The notes: a model not told the origin generated them from the letters alone. Shown: positions 1 to 4,234, numbered from the stretch's first letter. The stretch is DNA of 4,234 nucleotides from a virus (IMGVR_UViG_3300028965_000035), one strand, 5' to 3'. A program made the numbers and translations.

Positions 1-284
1 TCAGCCGGGGGCAGGCTGCCGGTCACGGCAGCCACCTTTGCGGCCGCGTCGGACGGGGAGACACCAAACACCTTTTCAACCAGTTTCAGGCCGTCACCGG
101 CACCACACTGATTGCAGTACCAGGTGCCGCGCCCCTCCCTGTCATCAAAACGGAAGCGGTCACTCCCGCCACAGACCGGACAGGGCTGATGACGGTTTTT
201 CAGCACCTGAATCCCCAGCGCCGGGAGAATACGCGGCCAGTGGCCGAGCGCATGGCTGACGGTGGCGGTTACGTTCATTTTCAT
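1..284 (-). CDS. alpha: N-terminal ~94 codons of P4-type alpha primase/helicase; gene continues beyond the window start
   Basis: Minus-strand ATG at 284-282, GAAGGAG Shine-Dalgarno (complement of 294-300) about 10 nt upstream. Open frame to the window edge translates MKMNVTATVSHALGHWPRILPALGIQVLKNRHQPCPVCGGSDRFRFDDREGRGTWYCNQCGAGDG..., i.e. a CxxC...CxxC zinc-ribbon typical of primase N-termini. Position downstream of orf106 matches P4 order. Confidence 0.8.
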   Translation of the reverse strand, partial: MKMNVTATVSHALGHWPRILPALGIQVLKNRHQPCPVCGGSDRFRFDDREGRGTWYCNQCGAGDGLKLVEKVFGVSPSDAAAKVAAVTGSLPPA

Positions 285-298
285 GGTGTTGTTCTCCT

Positions 299-619
299 TC
301 AGTGCAGTACCGGCGCTTTTATGTGACGGGCACAGAGTTCATCCATCACAACCAGCCCGAGAAAGGACAGCGACGGCGCGGCCTTCAGGGGGCCGGATTC
401 CATTAAATCTTCCAGCAGGGCACAGGCTATCTGACGCCCTTTTTCCTCACCGTGCTGGCGCAGATAAAAGCCTTCCAGCTCAGCGGCGATGGCCGCTTCC
501 AGTGACTCAAGGGTGAGATGCGGGTAGCGGTGCTGACGTTCGCACACGGTCAGCCAGGCACAGGCGACAGCGCGACGGTAAAGGGCAGCGCGTAAGACGG
601 GCGGTAAGGGTGTTTTCAT
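299..619 (-). CDS. Hypothetical protein, 106 aa (P4 orf106 equivalent), function unknown
   Basis: Complete ORF in the track. ATG at 619-617 preceded by GGGAGG (complement of 627-632) with 7-nt spacer. TGA stop at 301-299 lies inside the alpha Shine-Dalgarno region. Length and position match P4 orf106. Confidence 0.75.
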
Positions 620-700
620 TTGTTTTCCTCCCTGTGACAGATGACTGCATTCCGTGCCGGTTGCATTAACTGATAAGGCATATCTGCGTCTCCTGAAGAC

Positions 701-726
701 GTGCGTATCCCTGCGCGAATACGCAC
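701..726. other. Intergenic stem-loop between orf151 and orf106 (8-bp stem GTGCGTAT/ATACGCAC, 10-nt loop)
   Basis: Perfect inverted repeat 701-708 / 719-726. On the + strand it is followed by T-rich sequence (727-750), so it looks like an intrinsic terminator for antisense transcription. On the - strand it sits 29 nt after the orf151 stop with no U-run. Confidence 0.4.
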
Positions 727-754
727 ATTTAATTTTTCGGGTGTCGTTTTTTAA

Positions 755-1210
755 TTACAGATAATTGCGGTAACTGTTATCCGGGGTGATTTCCGGGTCA
801 GGCTCCGTGCGGGGAATTTCCCGCCATTCCCGCGCCACCGGTGCCGCCCGGCTGGCCGGAACAGTGTCCTGCGGGTAAATATCCAGATATTTCTCCCGCC
901 ATTTCTGTAATTCCGGGTCTCCGGCCATTTCTTTCAGTACCGCATGCCGGTTTACGGGGCTGCGTTTAAACAGGTCAGGACGGTCACAGGTAAATTCCCG
1001 CAGAAAACGCCCCAGCGGGATGTCTGTGGTGCGCCCGTCAGCGAGGATACGCACAAGGATACTGAATTTACGGCGGTACGGGTTCCAGACAATGTCCGGG
1101 CAGCGGTACGGCATTTCCCACGGAATACCGTCTTCCAGAATGCCGACCACGGCCACATCGGGAAAACCGGCAGAACGGTAAATCTCACCGGGCTGGGGAA
1201 AATCAAACAT
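755..1210 (-). CDS. Hypothetical protein, 151 aa (P4 orf151 equivalent), function unknown
   Basis: Complete ORF in the track. ATG at 1210-1208 overlaps the end of the upstream epsilon frame (ATGTTTGA, 8-nt overlap). TAA stop at 757-755. Length and position match P4 orf151. Confidence 0.75.
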   Translation of the reverse strand: MFDFPQPGEIYRSAGFPDVAVVGILEDGIPWEMPYRCPDIVWNPYRRKFSILVRILADGRTTDIPLGRFLREFTCDRPDLFKRSPVNRHAVLKEMAGDPELQKWREKYLDIYPQDTVPASRAAPVAREWREIPRTEPDPEITPDNSYRNYL

Positions 1211-1490
1211 GCGTCCTGTCTCCCCGGTCTTTCTGCTGGGCGAGAAAATCGCGGCACAGGCCTTTGGCTTTCAGCTCATTCAGCACAAAATCAATATCTT
1301 CATTCAGGTAGCTGAAAATATGCGGAATGTAGAGCTGATGCAGGCCGGAGAGTTCACGGTGAATCAAATCACCCCCAACAAACCGGGATACGGCGCTGGC
1401 GCGGTTGAGCTTATGGTAAGCCTCAATGCTGAGGTGTTCACGGGCGTCATGACGCGCTGAGACGGTCTGAGGGGTTTTTTTATTACGCAC
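1203..1490 (-). CDS. epsilon: Epsilon-like helper-prophage derepression protein, 95 aa if started at the GTG
   Basis: The track shows a 175-aa frame (1203-1730) whose upstream part overlaps kil in another frame. The only start with a ribosome-binding site is GTG at 1490-1488, preceded by GGAGGTG (complement of 1495-1501) with a 4-6 nt spacer. It lies 2 nt past the kil TAA stop (1485-1483). Product ends ...DRGDRTHV. Assignment is by position and size; the start codon is inferred. Confidence 0.55.
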
Positions 1491-1680
1491 GGGACACCTC
1501 CACCACCGGCAGACGGGCAGCAAGGGAGAGCACATAGTCACGGACAAGGGAACGGCGGGCACTGCGTTCATCACCGGCGACGGTGCGAAGCATGCAGATA
1601 CGGGGATGACGGTCTGCGCGACGGACAGCCGCAAACACAAAGACAAATTCAGGGTGTGAAGGGGTAAGGGTTGTAGCCAT
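1483..1680 (-). CDS. kil: Kil, 65 aa; an in-frame internal ATG at 1593-1591 would give a nested 36-aa product (eta-like)
   Basis: ATG at 1680-1678 preceded by AAGGAG (complement of 1689-1694) with 8-nt spacer. This is residue 147 of the 211-aa track ORF 1483-2118, whose upstream part covers the CI RNA/seqA leader and is therefore not coding. Product [65 protein letters not shown]. Confidence 0.6.
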
Positions 1681-1686
1681 AAGGCA

Positions 1687-1699
1687 GTCTCCTTCGAGT
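1687..1699 (-). promoter_or_regulatory. seqC-like target of the CI RNA loop, overlapping the kil ribosome-binding site
   Basis: + strand GTCTCCTTCGAGT (1687-1699) matches 12 of 13 positions of GTCGCCTTCGAGT at 1946-1958. Its transcript ACUCGAAGGAGAC is complementary to the loop AUUCUUCGAG in the 1746-1810 RNA (about 9 bp including one G-U). Confidence 0.55.
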
Positions 1700-1745
1700 A
1701 GCAAATAACTGCTATCGCCGGAGTTCTCACGCTCGATGGCGATAG

Positions 1746-1810
1746 CCCAGACGGGGGTGAGAATACCGGCCTCGAAGAATACCGGCCAGCCCGGAGGCTG
1801 CCCCGCCTGA
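1746..1810 (-). ncRNA. cI: CI-type immunity RNA (antisense regulator carrying seqB in a hairpin loop); ends approximate
   Basis: Minus-strand transcript folds into an outer stem (GGCGGGG 1807-1801 with CCCCGUC 1756-1750) enclosing two hairpins: CAGCC-UCCG-GGCUG, and a CCGG/CCGG stem with 10-nt loop AUUCUUCGAG. The complement of that loop, CTCGAAG (1771-1777), occurs only here in the window. Flanked by the direct repeat GAATACCGGCC (1761-1771, 1777-1787). Confidence 0.5.
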
Positions 1811-1919
1811 GCTACCATTGACTCAGTGGCATAACATGCGATTGCGAACAGGATCATACCTGCACGGCAAACCACACGCCACACCATAATCTGGCGCTCT
1901 GTGGCGTTGATTGCGACAC

Positions 1920-1941
1920 AAAAAAAGACGCATGGCGCGTC
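1920..1941 (-). terminator. Terminator-like hairpin plus U7 in the PLE leader, immediately downstream of seqA
   Basis: Minus-strand RNA GACGC-GCCAU-GCGUC (5-bp GC-rich stem, 1941-1927) followed directly by UUUUUUU (1926-1920). The stem is short, so this is more likely a weak or conditional terminator than a constitutive one. Confidence 0.4.
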
Positions 1942-1945
1942 ATAT

Positions 1946-1958
1946 GTCGCCTTCGAGT
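1946..1958 (-). promoter_or_regulatory. seqA-like target of the CI RNA loop in the 5' leader
   Basis: GTCGCCTTCGAGT, direct repeat of the seqC box, about 40-50 nt downstream of the predicted PLE start; complementary to the seqB loop (about 8 bp). Confidence 0.5.
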
Positions 1959-1996
1959 TACACGGGTTCTCACGCCCGGCTGCCGATTTTGCGGCA

Positions 1997-2034
1997 GCGG
2001 AAAAACTATATCCGCAAATGCCGGAAAAAGGCAA
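1997..2034 (-). promoter_or_regulatory. PLE-like constitutive sigma70 promoter of the leftward operon
   Basis: Minus strand -35 TTGCCT (complement of 2029-2034), 18-bp spacer, -10 TATAGT (complement of 2005-2010). Predicted start near 1997, between the vis stop and seqA. Confidence 0.5.
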
Positions 2035-2069
2035 GCCAGAAAAAGGGAGTTTTTGCAGAGCGGGCATCA

Positions 2070-2336
2070 TCATGCGTCGTACCCCCGTTTGCGTCCGGCA
2101 ATGCGCCCGGTCATCCATGCGGTGATTTCAGAGTGCAGCCAGGCCACATTTTTACCGCCAAGACTCACCTGCGGCGGAAATTCCCCCTTACGGATGAGTT
2201 CATAGATGGTCGAGCGTGACAGGCCGCACAGGTGCATCACTTCCGGCAGACGTAAAAAACGCTCCTGCGTGATGTCCGGCAGCGGCATCAGTGGCGTCAC
2301 TGGGGCGGGAGACGGGGAAGAAAAAACAGCTTGCAT
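2070..2336 (-). CDS. vis: Vis, AlpA/excisionase-family helix-turn-helix regulator, 88 aa
   Basis: Complete ORF. ATG at 2336-2334 preceded by GAGGT (complement of 2344-2348) with 7-nt spacer. Product contains [27 protein letters not shown], a typical AlpA/Xis-type HTH. First gene downstream of the PLL-like promoter. Confidence 0.8.
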
Positions 2337-2384
2337 CGGGCTACCTCGTTAATGTCCATACAGCACCGGATAAGTCCGTCCGGC

Positions 2385-2456
2385 TTCGGGTAGCGCTTTA
2401 TTTTGTGAATATTTTCGGCAGACGCAACAGGGGGGATTTGTTCAGGCAGCCTTACA
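2385..2456 (-). promoter_or_regulatory. PLL-like late promoter with Delta/Ogr-type activator dyad TGT-N12-ACA
   Basis: Dyad TGTTCAGGCAGCCTTACA at 2439-2456 (centre 2447.5). Weak AT-rich -10 candidate around 2399-2407 on the minus strand, predicted start near 2390, reading into vis. Confidence 0.5.
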
Positions 2457-2520
2457 ATGGCTGTGTGTTTTTTATCCATCCGGACTGGAAGGGTCTCAAA
2501 GGGTTCTGAAGGACCTGGAA

Positions 2521-2740
2521 TTTTTTATAGTGAAATACAAATTGTTTTTTCTTATTTATTTCAGTGAATTAATAAAAATAAAAAGTAATAAACAGCACAA
2601 AAAGTCCATGAACGGGTGAACAGTGGTGAACAGACGGTGAACAGTCATTACTGCGATTGTTCACCCTTTAACTTACTGTATTACTTATCTTTTTTATTAA
2701 GGTGAACAGAGGTGAACAGTAAAACATAAAAAAAAACAGT
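2521..2740. other. Replication origin region: AT-rich tract with six copies of the octamer TGTTCACC (alpha-binding iteron type)
   Basis: Complement-strand copies GGTGAACA at 2615-2622, 2625-2632, 2636-2643, 2701-2708, 2711-2718 (each as GGTGAACAG); one opposite-orientation copy TGTTCACC at 2658-2665. Flanked by AT-rich DNA (2521-2600, 2666-2700) and an A9 run at 2728-2736. Confidence 0.7.
2615..2719. repeat. Iteron cluster (GGTGAACAG, five direct copies plus one inverted copy)
   Basis: Exact 8-9 bp repeats at about 10-11 bp (one helical turn) spacing in two blocks, separated by an inverted copy. Confidence 0.8.
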
Positions 2741-2795
2741 AAGCAGGTTTTTCCTGCGACCTTTTCCTGGCTTGCCGGTCTGAGGATGAGTCTCC

Positions 2796-2860
2796 TGTGT
2801 CAGGGCTGGCACATCTGCAATGCGTCGTGTTGTTGTCCGGTGTACGTCACAATTTTCTTA
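2796..2860 (+). promoter_or_regulatory. Psid-like late promoter with Delta/Ogr-type activator dyad TGT-N12-ACA
   Basis: Dyad TGTGTCAGGGCTGGCACA at 2796-2813 (centre 2804.5). Weak -10 candidate CACAAT at 2848-2853, predicted start near 2860, leader of about 25 nt to the sid ATG. Confidence 0.5.
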
Positions 2861-2885
2861 ACCTGAAGTGACGAGGAGCCGGAAA

Positions 2886-3620
2886 ATGTCTGACAACACC
2901 ATCCCTGAATATCTGCAACCCGCGCTGGCACAACTGGAAAAGGCCAGAGCCGCCCATCTTGAGAACGCCCGCCTGATGGATGAGACCGTCACGGCCATTG
3001 AACGGGCAGAGCAGGAAAAAAATGCGCTGGCGCAGGCCGACGGAAACGACGCTGACGACTGGCGCACGGCCTTTCGTGCAGCCGGTGGTGTCCTGAGCGA
3101 CGAGCTGAAACAGCGCCACATTGAGCGCGTGGCACGCCGGGAGCTGGTACAGGAATATGACAATCTGGCCGTGGTGCTGAATTTCGAACGTGAACGCCTG
3201 AAAGGGGCGTGTGACAGCACGGCCACCGCCTACCGGAAGGCACATCATCACCTTCTGAGTCTGTATGCAGAGCATGAGCTGGAACACGCCCTGAATGAAA
3301 CCTGTGAGGCGCTTGTCCGGGCAATGCATCTGAGTATCCTGGTACAGGAAAATCCGCTCGCCAACACCACCGGCCATCAGGGCTACGTCGCACCCGATAA
3401 GGCTGTCATGCAGCAGGTGAAATCATCGCTGGAACAGAAAATTAAACAGATGCAAATCAGCCTCACCGGCGAGCCGGTTCTCCGGCTGGCCGGACTGTCA
3501 GCGGCAACACTCCCGCACATGGATTATGAGGTGGCAGGCACACCGGCACAGCGCAAGGTGTGGCAGGACAAAATAGACCAGCAGGGAGCAGAGCTTAAGG
3601 CCAGAGGACTGCTGTCATGA
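2886..3620 (+). CDS. sid: Sid, external scaffold that redirects helper capsid assembly to the small size, 244 aa
   Basis: ATG at 2886 preceded by GAGGAG (2873-2878) with 7-nt spacer. The track's 2868 start is an in-frame GTG without a ribosome-binding site. TGA stop at 3618-3620 overlaps the delta ATG. Assigned by size and position directly before delta. Confidence 0.85.
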   Translation: MSDNTIPEYLQPALAQLEKARAAHLENARLMDETVTAIERAEQEKNALAQADGNDADDWRTAFRAAGGVLSDELKQRHIERVARRELVQEYDNLAVVLNFERERLKGACDSTATAYRKAHHHLLSLYAEHELEHALNETCEALVRAMHLSILVQENPLANTTGHQGYVAPDKAVMQQVKSSLEQKIKQMQISLTGEPVLRLAGLSAATLPHMDYEVAGTPAQRKVWQDKIDQQGAELKARGLLS

Positions 3621-4117
3621 TTTACTGCCCGTCGTGTGGACATGTTGCTCACACCCGTCGCGCACATTTCATGGACGATGGCACCAAGATAATGATTGCA
3701 CAGTGCCGGAATATTTATTGCTCTGCGACATTTGAAGCGAGTGAAAGCTTTTTCTCTGACAGTAAAGATTCAGGAATGGAATACATTTCAGGCAAACAGA
3801 GATACCGCGATTCACTGACGTCGGCCTCCGGCAGTATGAAACGCCCGAAAAGAATGCTTGTTACCGGATATTGTTGTCGGAGATGTAAAGGCCTTGCGCT
3901 GTCAAGAACATCGCGGCGTCTGTCTCAGGAAGTCACCGAGCGTTTTTATGTGTGCACGGATCCGGGCTGTGGTCTGGTGTTTAAAACGCTTCAGACCATC
4001 ACCCGCTTCATTGTCCGCCCGGTCACGCCGGACGAACTGGCAGAACGCCTGCATGAAAAACAGGAACTGCCGCCAGTACGGTTAAAAACACAATCATATT
4101 CGCTGCGTCTGGAATGA
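3617..4117 (+). CDS. delta: Delta, late-gene transcriptional activator made of two Ogr-like zinc-finger modules, 166 aa
   Basis: ATG at 3617 overlaps the sid stop (ATGA); GAGGA at 3604-3608. N-terminal module MIYCPSCGH...CRNIYCSATF and second module CCRRCKG...CTDPGCGLVF each have CxxC...Cx4C spacing like Ogr-family activators. Confidence 0.85.
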   Translation: MIYCPSCGHVAHTRRAHFMDDGTKIMIAQCRNIYCSATFEASESFFSDSKDSGMEYISGKQRYRDSLTSASGSMKRPKRMLVTGYCCRRCKGLALSRTSRRLSQEVTERFYVCTDPGCGLVFKTLQTITRFIVRPVTPDELAERLHEKQELPPVRLKTQSYSLRLE

Positions 4118-4178
4118 GGGCTGCCGGTTAACCCCGGCCGTTGCGTATTACCGTGAAGGAGATCGGTGAGTAACATCG

Positions 4179-4234
4179 ATGGAGATCGGTTCGTGTCACT
4201 TTCACAGAACCGTTTTTAAATTACCTTCACTGAT
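4179..4234 (+). CDS. 5' end of the next late-operon ORF (psu position in P4), truncated by the window end; product not assignable from 18 codons
   Basis: Only frame open to the window end after delta. First ATG at 4179 (MEIGSCHFHRTVFKLPSL...). The nearest strong Shine-Dalgarno, AAGGAGA at 4156-4162, is 16 nt upstream, which is too far for a good site. Identity uncertain. Confidence 0.3.
   Translation, partial: MEIGSCHFHRTVFKLPSL

What the first reader, a model, noticed from the sequence alone, without database searches (positions are those of the whole stretch)
1..4234. Window is the helper-exploitation core of a P4-type satellite phage, not a novel system
One compact locus combines helper derepression (epsilon), capsid-size redirection (sid), helper late-gene activation (delta), immunity RNA (cI), a vis regulator and an iteron origin, with the gene lengths (88, 65, 95, 151, 106, 244, 166 aa) and order known for P4. 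If this sits in a bacterial chromosome it marks an integrated P4-like satellite. The known anti-phage defence hotspot of such elements lies downstream of psu towards int, outside this window.
Basis: partly seen in the sequence, partly recalled or inferred. Interest (0 to 1): 0.55.

Follow-up and report, generated by a model that had tools for sequence, protein, structure and literature searches.

The report
P4-type satellite phage core, IS-interrupted
Its last 93 bases belong to an insertion sequence, and it carries non-P4 alleles at two small regulatory sites: the immunity RNA and the helper-sensing repeats.

Summary
Confirmed. Bases 1-4141 are colinear with phage P4 (NC_001609 6686-10838) at 97% identity and up to 99.6% identical to prophages in complete E. 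coli genomes. All predicted genes are intact at the stated lengths and in P4 order: alpha N-terminus, cnr/orf106, orf151, epsilon 95 aa, kil 65 aa, CI RNA, vis 88 aa, six ori iterons, sid 244 aa, delta 166 aa. Each protein differs from P4 by 0-3 residues.

- Bases 4142-4234 are the istB-proximal end of an IS21-family element (ISEc12). It sits 24 nt after the delta stop and cuts delta off from psu.
- The immunity determinant differs from P4. The CI RNA loop and both of its targets (seqA and seqC, the latter over the kil ribosome-binding site) carry matched compensatory changes, so I predict heteroimmunity to P4.
- P4's three 10-bp "type 2" repeats upstream of PLL, which are P2 Cox boxes, are replaced by a different 51-bp block with the same 10-bp phasing. 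It is one of three discrete alleles in E. coli. Each allele resembles the Pc/Cox-operator region of a different class of P2-like helpers.

The element itself is already known and of low interest. The Cox-box allele idea is an untested lead.

The parts
3..284 (-). N-terminal 94 codons of alpha (primase-helicase); the gene runs off the left end of the window
   Evidence: Identical in protein to P4 alpha residues 1-94. Pfam Zn_Ribbon_Prim, E=1.2e-19.
299..619 (-). orf106 = cnr (copy-number regulation), 106 aa
   Evidence: Protein 100% identical to P4. Pfam DUF5375, E=2.9e-63. The name cnr comes from PMC8628076 and my own knowledge.
755..1210 (-). orf151, 151 aa, function unknown
   Evidence: 2 residue differences from P4. 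PHROG 10748.
1203..1490 (-). epsilon, the helper derepression protein, 95 aa
   Evidence: 1 residue difference from P4. Pfam Derepression, E=7e-51.
1483..1680 (-). kil, 65 aa, the first translated gene of the PLE operon
   Evidence: Identical to the P4 translation. ATG at 1680, preceded by a GAAGGAG Shine-Dalgarno sequence.
1690..1698 (-). seqC b-module (CUCGAAGGA), the CI RNA target over the kil Shine-Dalgarno sequence
   Evidence: 9-bp complementarity to the CI loop. All aligned sequences keep every pair, with compensatory changes.
1724..1730 (-). seqC a-module (GUGAGAA), the second CI RNA target element downstream of cI
   Evidence: Pairs with CI 1757-1763. 3 of 7 pairs covary across elements.
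1735..1822 (-). CI immunity RNA (C4 antisense RNA family). Recognition modules: b = 1771-1779 (UUCUUCGAG), a = 1757-1763 (UUCUCAC)
   Evidence: Rfam RF01695, 74.3 bits. Fold energy -48 kcal/mol, z=-5.35. Covariation.
1921..1998 (-). PLE leader: short transcript unit ending in an intrinsic terminator (stem 1927-1941 plus a T run)
   Evidence: Rfam isrK, 70.7 bits. Terminator scan.
1950..1973 (-). seqA: upstream CI RNA targets (b-module 1950-1957 CUCGAAGG; a-module 1967-1973 GUGAGAA)
   Evidence: Rfam c4-a1b1, 50.4 bits at 1959-2011. Complementarity. 315/315 cells paired, 9 pairs with compensatory change.
2005..2034 (-). PLE promoter (TTGCCT, 18-nt spacer, TATAGT)
   Evidence: The only sigma-70-like match in the window. 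Invariant across 22 elements. Calling it PLE rests on its position and on my own knowledge.
2070..2336 (-). vis (orf88), AlpA-family regulator and excisionase, 88 aa
   Evidence: 3 residue differences from P4. Pfam Phage_AlpA, E=3.9e-21.
2439..2456 (+). TGT-N12-ACA site upstream of PLL; probable Ogr/Delta activator site
   Evidence: Pattern search: 5 matches against 1.04 expected. The function is inferred from my own knowledge of P2/P4 late promoters.
2474..2524 (+). 51-bp cassette that replaces P4's 'type 2 repeats' (the P2 Cox boxes). AAGG occurs at 2489, 2499 and 2509, and GGAA at 2518, so the units are 10 bp apart
   Evidence: Alignments. Three discrete alleles. No consensus Cox box here. 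Resembles the helper Pc region.
2615..2718 (.). ori: six type I iterons (TGTTCACC), identical in sequence and position to those of P4
   Evidence: 6 matches against 0.17 expected. P4 annotation. Alignment.
2796..2851 (+). Psid control region with two TGT-N12-ACA sites (2796-2813 and 2834-2851)
   Evidence: Identical to P4. Activator binding is inferred from my own knowledge.
2886..3620 (+). sid, the capsid size determination protein, 244 aa
   Evidence: 3 residue differences from P4. PDB 7jw1 Sid, E=8.8e-156.
3617..4117 (+). delta, Ogr/Delta-type late-gene activator, 166 aa
   Evidence: Pfam Ogr_Delta, two stretches. This exact protein sequence is indexed in 8224 blocks of the public collection.
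4142..4234 (-). Terminal 93 bp (the istB-proximal end) of an IS21-family ISEc12 element, inserted 24 nt after the delta stop. The last ~7 bases are the 3' end of istB
   Evidence: 99% identical to ISEc12 copies. Identical to the IS end in L003, whose two ends begin TGCGTATT. P4 homology stops at 4141.

Best explanation
The window is the regulatory, replication-origin and late-operon segment of a P4-family satellite prophage of E. coli or a close relative. How it works follows from P4 biology and was not tested here. PLE drives a leader from which the CI RNA is cut. The CI RNA pairs through two short modules with seqA and seqC. Pairing with seqC covers the kil ribosome-binding site, which blocks translation and causes early termination, so the replication genes (epsilon, orf151, cnr, alpha) stay off in the lysogen. 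A helper phage wakes the element through the PLL and Psid promoters. Epsilon derepresses a resident helper. Delta turns on helper and satellite late genes. Sid shrinks the helper capsid. Alpha fires the iteron origin. In this particular copy an ISEc12 (IS21-family) element has landed 24 nt after delta. It cuts psu off from Psid and, if full length (about 2.5 kb), pushes the genome above the ~12 kb small-capsid limit. The copy also carries a non-P4 CI/seqA/seqC specificity and a non-P2 Cox-type repeat array upstream of PLL.
For: The window is 97% identical and colinear with P4, and up to 99.6% identical to chromosomal prophages flanked by int, a tRNA gene and a psu-int defence cargo. All ORFs are intact and nearly identical to P4. 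Rfam finds C4, c4-a1b1 and isrK. The iterons are confirmed. The IS end is shown. CI-target pairing holds in 315/315 cells for both targets, with 9 and 8 compensatory pairs; slid-partner controls pair in only 39-55% of cells. sid, delta and psu form one operon and the small capsid fits 11.6 kb (PMC7552001). The capsid limit of about 12 kb is from PMC9122126.
Against: Int, psu, cos and the attachment site lie outside the window, so integration and completeness of this copy are not shown. Only 93 bp of the IS are visible, so it could be a fragment. No public complete E. coli genome, and no GTDB species-representative genome, has this exact junction, so the source context cannot be inspected. All functional statements are transferred from P4; nothing was measured here.
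Confidence: 0.96

Rival explanations
1. The window is phage P4 itself or a laboratory P4 derivative or cosmid, not a natural P4-like prophage.
For: The best phage-database hit is P4 at 97%.
Against: There are 129 differing alignment columns, concentrated in the immunity leader (11.8%) and the PLL/ori-left region. Natural chromosomal prophages are closer, up to 99.6%. An ISEc12 end follows delta.
Confidence: 0.01
2. The element is a decaying, non-mobilisable remnant. The IS insertion is one step in its domestication, and the window genes are no longer used as a satellite.
For: The IS separates delta from psu. ISEc12 hits P4-like elements repeatedly at other sites: vis in L003, psu in L012, orf151 in L015, the vis-sid intergenic region in L023. 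A full IS would take the genome above the ~12 kb capsid limit.
Against: Every ORF in the window is intact with 0-3 residue changes, so any inactivation is recent. [quoted passage not shown]
Confidence: 0.35
3. The variable 51-bp block upstream of PLL belongs to the replication origin (the 'type 2 ori repeats' of the GenBank record), or is a site for the satellite's own Vis protein. On this reading it is not a helper Cox sensor.
For: The P4 record annotates these repeats inside rep_origin. Vis is a recombination directionality factor, and such factors bind phased direct repeats (general statement in PMC7498355).
Against: Vis, alpha N-terminus and cnr are nearly invariant across elements that carry different cassette alleles, so no satellite protein tracks the allele. 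The P4 repeats match the P2 Cox-box consensus TTAAA(G/C)NC(A/C), and Cox is reported to bind upstream of PLL (PMC3936717). Each allele's best match is in the C-cox intergenic region of a P2-like phage (shown to be Pc itself for P2), in the same orientation.
Confidence: 0.3

Closest known systems
Enterobacteria phage P4 (NC_001609 / X51522), coordinates 6686-10838
   Same: Gene content, order, lengths and overlaps. Six type I iterons. The PLE leader architecture and the Psid region. Proteins differ by 0-3 residues.
   Different: The CI loop and both targets differ at 3-4 matched positions. An 11-bp deletion in the leader spacer. The three Cox-box 'type 2' repeats are replaced. An IS follows delta where P4 has the 70-nt delta-psu spacer.
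Chromosomal P4-like prophages of E. coli, e.g. strain 2017.18.02CC (NZ_AP027844.1) at tRNA-Sec
   Same: 99.6% identity over 1-4141, with the same immunity allele and the same PLL cassette allele.
   Different: Those copies have psu directly after delta, then a helicase + DUF2290 cargo, then int. None has an IS at this junction.
P1/P7 c4 antisense RNA immunity (Rfam C4 and c4-a1b1)
   Same: A processed antisense RNA with two recognition elements. Each is matched by one upstream and one downstream target, and the downstream target covers the ribosome-binding site of the first gene.
   Different: Here the system controls a satellite's replication operon (kil ... alpha). The b-module allele is CUCGAAGG. 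At least 6 b-alleles and 3 a-alleles reassort among E. coli P4-like elements.
P2 Cox boxes at P2 Pc and upstream of P4 PLL (PMC3936717)
   Same: Position upstream of PLL and 10-bp phasing of 3-4 direct units.
   Different: The consensus TTAAA(G/C)NC(A/C) is absent. The unit here is (G/A)AAGG-centred. The block aligns best with the equivalent region of a non-P2 class of helpers whose Cox is 78-79% identical to WPhi Cox (31/45 identical, family-wise p about 0.003), and scores only 6 against the P2 Pc region.
ISEc12 (IS21 family)
   Same: The 93 terminal bases are identical to ISEc12 copies annotated by PGAP, including the repeated GGAGATCGGT motifs and the istB stop.
   Different: Only one end is visible. 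The insertion site between delta and psu was not found in any complete E. coli genome.

Membership tests
P4-like satellite (seven core components; Moura de Sousa & Rocha, PMC8628076) | delta (Ogr/Delta zinc-finger activator) | tested here: met
   166 aa. Pfam Ogr_Delta with two stretches. 98% identical to P4.
P4-like satellite (seven core components; Moura de Sousa & Rocha, PMC8628076) | sid (capsid size determination) | tested here: met
   244 aa. Matches PDB 7jw1 Sid at E=9e-156.
P4-like satellite (seven core components; Moura de Sousa & Rocha, PMC8628076) | alpA/vis | tested here: met
   88 aa. Pfam Phage_AlpA, 75 bits.
P4-like satellite (seven core components; Moura de Sousa & Rocha, PMC8628076) | epsilon | tested here: met
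   95 aa. Pfam Derepression, 170 bits.
P4-like satellite (seven core components; Moura de Sousa & Rocha, PMC8628076) | alpha (primase-helicase) | tested here: inconclusive
   Only the first 94 codons are in the window. They are identical to P4 and carry Zn_Ribbon_Prim.
P4-like satellite (seven core components; Moura de Sousa & Rocha, PMC8628076) | psu | not testable with these tools
   psu lies outside the window. An IS end sits where psu follows delta in P4.
P4-like satellite (seven core components; Moura de Sousa & Rocha, PMC8628076) | integrase and attachment site | not testable with these tools
   Outside the window. The source contig was not found.
P4-like satellite (seven core components; Moura de Sousa & Rocha, PMC8628076) | P4 gene order | tested here: met
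   Single colinear alignment to P4.
C4 antisense RNA immunity (Rfam RF01695 / RF03163) | RNA reaches the family gathering score | tested here: met
   C4 scores 74.3 against 45; c4-a1b1 scores 50.4 against 46.7.
C4 antisense RNA immunity (Rfam RF01695 / RF03163) | Complementarity to an upstream target and to a downstream target at the first gene's ribosome-binding site, kept by compensatory change | tested here: met
   8-9 bp (b-module) plus 7 bp (a-module) duplexes. 100% of cells paired, 9 and 8 covarying pairs, slid controls 39-55%.
P4 immunity specificity (same immunity as P4 itself) | seqB identical to that of P4 | tested here: not met
   UAUUCUUCGAGG here against UAUCCUGUGAAG in P4, with 3 compensated positions in both targets.
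P2 Cox-responsive PLL (as in P4) | Cox boxes TTAAA(G/C)NC(A/C) upstream of PLL | tested here: not met
   None in 2337-2890; the only two matches in the window are at 961 and 3976. P4 has two exact boxes plus one near-match at this position.
P4 origin of replication | Six type I iterons TGTTCACC in the P4 arrangement | tested here: met
   alignment.
IS21 family / ISEc12 | Terminal sequence identical to known copies | tested here: met
IS21 family / ISEc12 | istA and istB genes, second end, target-site duplication | not testable with these tools
   These lie beyond the right end of the window.

The most novel reading that the evidence does not exclude
The 51-bp block upstream of PLL (2474-2524) is a swappable copy of the helper's Cox operator. 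Its allele would decide which class of P2-like helper can wake the satellite through its Cox protein. The P4 allele copies the P2 Pc operator. The window allele and a third allele copy the operator of helpers with WPhi-related Cox proteins. Together with the two-module CI RNA specificity, this would mean that helper recognition and satellite-satellite immunity evolve by exchange of tiny non-coding cassettes, on a protein-coding backbone that stays 96% identical or more.
Probability: 0.35. Interest if true: 0.55.

Novelty: already known. Interest (0 to 1): 0.2.

Why it matters
The main finding does not matter much. P4-like satellites occur in roughly a quarter to a third of E. coli genomes (PMC9122126, PMC8628076), and this copy is nearly identical to many deposited ones. 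It is useful as an annotation. It marks a satellite prophage whose defence cargo should lie just beyond the IS. It also flags that gene callers mis-annotate the CI RNA region as a 184-199 aa 'Icd-like/Phage_ASH' protein.

The side observations could matter more. If the PLL cassette alleles set helper specificity, they give a simple sequence marker for which satellite can parasitise which P2-like phage. That question was left open by the published censuses, which do not mention Cox boxes.

Tried and rejected
- **Source contig.** Two exact-junction patterns found nothing in the GTDB species-representative genomes. No complete E. coli genome has the delta-IS junction; the nearest case has the IS inside psu.
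- **Cassette versus phage records.** blastn of the PLL cassette against 50,697 phage records gave only chance hits, so there is no sign of recent direct capture from a phage.
- **WPhi motif.** The WPhi 12-nt repeat CTAGAARGGAC is not enriched in the window: 2 matches at up to 2 mismatches, against 1.23 expected. I therefore dropped the specific claim 'WPhi Cox site' and kept only the broader alignment result.
- **More helpers.** Extra helpers of the ev239 Cox class gave no better match.
- **Literature.** The Lindqvist/Deho/Calendar 1993 review could not be read. Details of PLE/PLL/Psid start sites, eta and RNA processing therefore rest on my own knowledge.
- **Readings rejected.** P4 itself or a vector, because of the divergence and the IS. 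A plasmid copy: all cassette hits are chromosomal, though this does not decide the case for this window. The long antisense or overlapping ORFs, such as 2847-3377(-) and 1483-2118(-), are not real genes; they lie opposite to, or across, known P4 features.
Full report
**1. The observation**

The window matches phage P4 (NC_001609 / X51522) from base 1 to 4141 in one colinear piece at 97.0% identity. A direct blastn gives 113 mismatches and 6 gap openings. Against 5,426 complete E. coli genomes, 949 hold at least 80% of the window, and the best hit is 99.6% identical (NZ_AP027844.1).

The P4 annotation maps onto the window as follows:

| Feature | Coordinates (strand) | Size |
|---|---|---|
| alpha, N-terminus | 284..3 (-) | first 94 codons |
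| orf106 / cnr | 299-619 (-) | 106 aa |
| orf151 | 755-1210 (-) | 151 aa |
| epsilon | 1203-1490 (-) | 95 aa |
| kil | 1483-1680 (-) | 65 aa |
| vis | 2070-2336 (-) | 88 aa |
| sid | 2886-3620 (+) | 244 aa |
| delta | 3617-4117 (+) | 166 aa |

Translations show no frameshift or stop and only 0-3 residue differences from P4 per protein. Family searches agree: Zn_Ribbon_Prim, DUF5375, Derepression, Phage_AlpA and Ogr_Delta with two stretches. Sid matches the solved P4 Sid structure 7jw1 at E=9e-156.

Rfam finds the CI RNA (C4, 74.3 bits, 1735-1822 minus strand), its upstream target (c4-a1b1, 1959-2011) and the leader transcript (isrK model, 1921-1998). The origin iteron TGTTCACC occurs six times at 2615-2718, against 0.17 expected by chance.

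**2. Where the window is not P4**

*(a) The right end is an insertion sequence.* P4 homology ends at 4141. Bases 4142-4234 are 99-100% identical to the istB-proximal end of ISEc12, an IS21-family element. In another genome both ends of this IS begin TGCGTATT, which fixes the junction at T4142. That is 24 nt after the delta stop codon and upstream of where psu starts in P4.

sid, delta and psu form one operon (PMC7552001). The insertion therefore cuts psu off from Psid; this is an inference. A full-length copy (about 2.5 kb, as seen) would take an 11.6-kb-type genome above the ~12 kb that a small capsid holds (PMC9122126). No complete E. coli genome and no GTDB species-representative genome has this junction. 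The same IS has hit P4-like elements elsewhere: vis in L003, psu in L012, orf151 in L015 and the vis-sid intergenic region in L023.

*(b) Divergence from P4 is not spread evenly.* Coding regions differ by 0.3-1.9%. The immunity leader (1681-2069) differs by 11.8% and the PLL/ori-left region (2337-2885) by 7.8%.

**3. The immunity region**

The second hairpin loop of the CI RNA reads UAUUCUUCGAGG here and UAUCCUGUGAAG in P4. Both targets carry the matching changes. These are seqA at 1950-1957 and seqC at 1690-1698; seqC overlaps the kil Shine-Dalgarno sequence GAAGGAG.

I aligned 22 P4-like leaders (A1) and counted two intermolecular helices for each target: the b-module, and a second a-module (UUCUCAC pairing with GUGAGAA).

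| Interaction | Cells paired | Pairs with compensatory change | Controls with the 3' partner slid 1-3 columns |
|---|---|---|---|
| seqA-CI | 315/315 | 9 | 40-55% paired |
| CI-seqC | 315/315 | 8 | 39-54% paired |

At least six b-alleles and three a-alleles exist, and they combine freely. The window shares its a-module with P4 but not its b-module. I therefore predict that it is heteroimmune to P4.

The principle is known from P1/P7 c4 and, to my knowledge, from P4 versus retronphage phiR73; I could not read that paper. The window's exact leader occurs in other genomes at 100% identity. This is a new allele description at most.

**4. The cassette upstream of PLL**

The P4 record annotates three 10-bp 'ori type 2 repeats' at 9176-9205. 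They contain TTAAAGTCA and TTAAAGCCA plus TTAAAGCAA (seen). This is the P2 Cox-box consensus TTAAA(G/C)NC(A/C). P2 Cox is reported to bind upstream of PLL and to activate P4, whereas WPhi Cox does not activate P4 and recognises a different repeat (PMC3936717 and PMC5009727).

In the window this block (2474-2524) is replaced by unrelated sequence between perfectly conserved flanks. AAGG occurs at 2489, 2499 and 2509, and GGAA at 2518, so the 10-bp phasing is kept. No consensus Cox box is present between vis and sid.

Among 28 elements with conserved flanks there are exactly three alleles and no intermediates. Counts in 5,426 complete E. coli genomes:

| Allele | Places | Genomes |
|---|---|---|
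| Window type | 254 | 238 |
| P4 type | 479 | 439 |
| Third type | 395 | 373 |

The alleles reassort with the CI alleles while all proteins stay at least 96% identical (some genes are truncated or missing in a few loci). No satellite protein tracks the cassette allele.

I then aligned each allele against 59 distinct C-cox intergenic regions of P2-like phages:

- The P4 allele aligns best with the stretch of P2 between the annotated Pc -10 and -35 signals: 26/34 identical, score 18.
- The window allele aligns best with a class whose Cox is 78-79% identical to WPhi Cox (L092, L084): 31/45 identical, score 17.5.
- The third allele aligns best with the same class (L084, score 17.5) and also with SW3 (19/22 identical, score 16).

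All matches are in the same orientation. Family-wise p values from dinucleotide shuffles are 0.003-0.007. The window and third alleles score only 6-7 against the P2 Pc region.

There are caveats. The targets are related to one another. The identities are modest. The WPhi 12-mer itself is not enriched in the window. A blastn search found no phage carrying the block.

My reading, at about 35% probability, is that the block is a copy of the helper's Cox operator and that its allele sets which helper's Cox can wake the satellite. The rival reading is an origin or Vis function. I found no paper containing both 'cox-box' and 'P4-like', and the two census papers I searched (PMC8628076, PMC13586616) do not mention Cox.

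**5. Mechanism**

All of the following is transferred from P4, not measured here.

- PLE (2005-2034) drives the leader.
- The CI RNA is processed from the leader and pairs with seqA and seqC.
- Occlusion of the kil ribosome-binding site leads to premature termination, which keeps epsilon, orf151, cnr and alpha silent.
- Helper signals act at PLL and Psid. These are Ogr/Delta at the TGT-N12-ACA sites 2439-2456, 2796-2813 and 2834-2851, and Cox at the cassette.
- Vis, Epsilon, Delta, Sid and Alpha then act as they do in P4.

**6. Comparison and membership**

Of the seven core components that define P4-like satellites (PMC8628076):

- Four are present and intact: delta, sid, alpA/vis and epsilon.
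- One is present but cut by the window edge: alpha.
- Two are out of view: psu and int.

Gene order matches P4. Close relatives sit at tRNA-Sec, tRNA-Leu or next to smpB and carry varied cargo between psu and int.

**7. Verdict**

The finding is correct and describes something already known, so interest is low. The IS junction is ordinary. The immunity allele fits a known principle. The three-allele Cox-type cassette is the only part that might be new, and it needs the experiments listed under next steps.

Noticed in passing
window 4142-4234: The last 93 bases are the istB-proximal end of an IS21-family ISEc12 element. It is inserted 24 nt after the delta stop, between delta and psu. This exact junction is absent from all complete E. 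coli genomes searched.
   Followed up: yes
window 1690-1698, 1724-1730, 1757-1779, 1950-1973 (minus strand); alignment A1: The CI RNA and its two targets carry matched non-P4 bases. Across 22 elements, two recognition modules (at least 6 b-alleles and 3 a-alleles) covary perfectly with both targets and recombine freely with each other.
   Followed up: yes
window 2474-2524: P4's 'type 2 ori repeats' (P2 Cox boxes) are replaced by a different block with the same 10-bp phasing. There are three discrete alleles in E. coli (254, 479 and 395 places). Each resembles the C-cox (Pc) intergenic region of a different class of P2-like phage.
   Followed up: partly
window 1839-1875 (leader spacer between the terminator and cI): The spacer has two haplotypes, one with an 11-bp deletion relative to P4 (net 9 bases shorter). 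They do not track the seqB allele: L004 has the window's seqB with P4's spacer, and L009 the reverse. This suggests recombination within about 100 bp.
   Followed up: no
window 1483-2118 (minus strand); L003, L012-L023: PGAP and other gene callers annotate a 184-199 aa 'host cell division inhibitor Icd-like / Phage_ASH' protein across the CI RNA and leader. In P4 biology only the last 65 codons (kil) are a gene, so the long ORF is probably an over-call.
   Followed up: partly
L003 (vis), L012 (psu), L015 (orf151), L023 (vis-sid intergenic region), L017 (outside alpha): ISEc12-type IS21 elements have inserted independently at several different positions in or next to closely related P4-like elements.
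   Followed up: partly
window 3830-3835 (delta codons 72-73): Delta reads GS where the P4 reference reads CG, in the linker between the two zinc-finger halves. The window's exact Delta sequence is very common (indexed in 8224 blocks of the public collection), so the 1990 P4 reference is the odd one out.
   Followed up: partly
window 1921-1998 (minus strand): The PLE leader, up to its intrinsic terminator, matches the Rfam isrK model (Gifsy-1 prophage sRNA) at 70.7 bits. The same leader design is therefore shared with Salmonella prophage immunity regions.
   Followed up: no
L129 (IMG/VR P2-like phage), about 30-80 nt upstream of cox; also L029: Other P2-like phages have their own 10-bp phased repeat arrays just upstream of cox, for example four tandem 10-bp units beginning GTCCT/GTCTG (GTCCTGAACA and variants) in L129 and CCATTAGRAG in 720R8. 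This suggests many Cox specificities exist.
   Followed up: no
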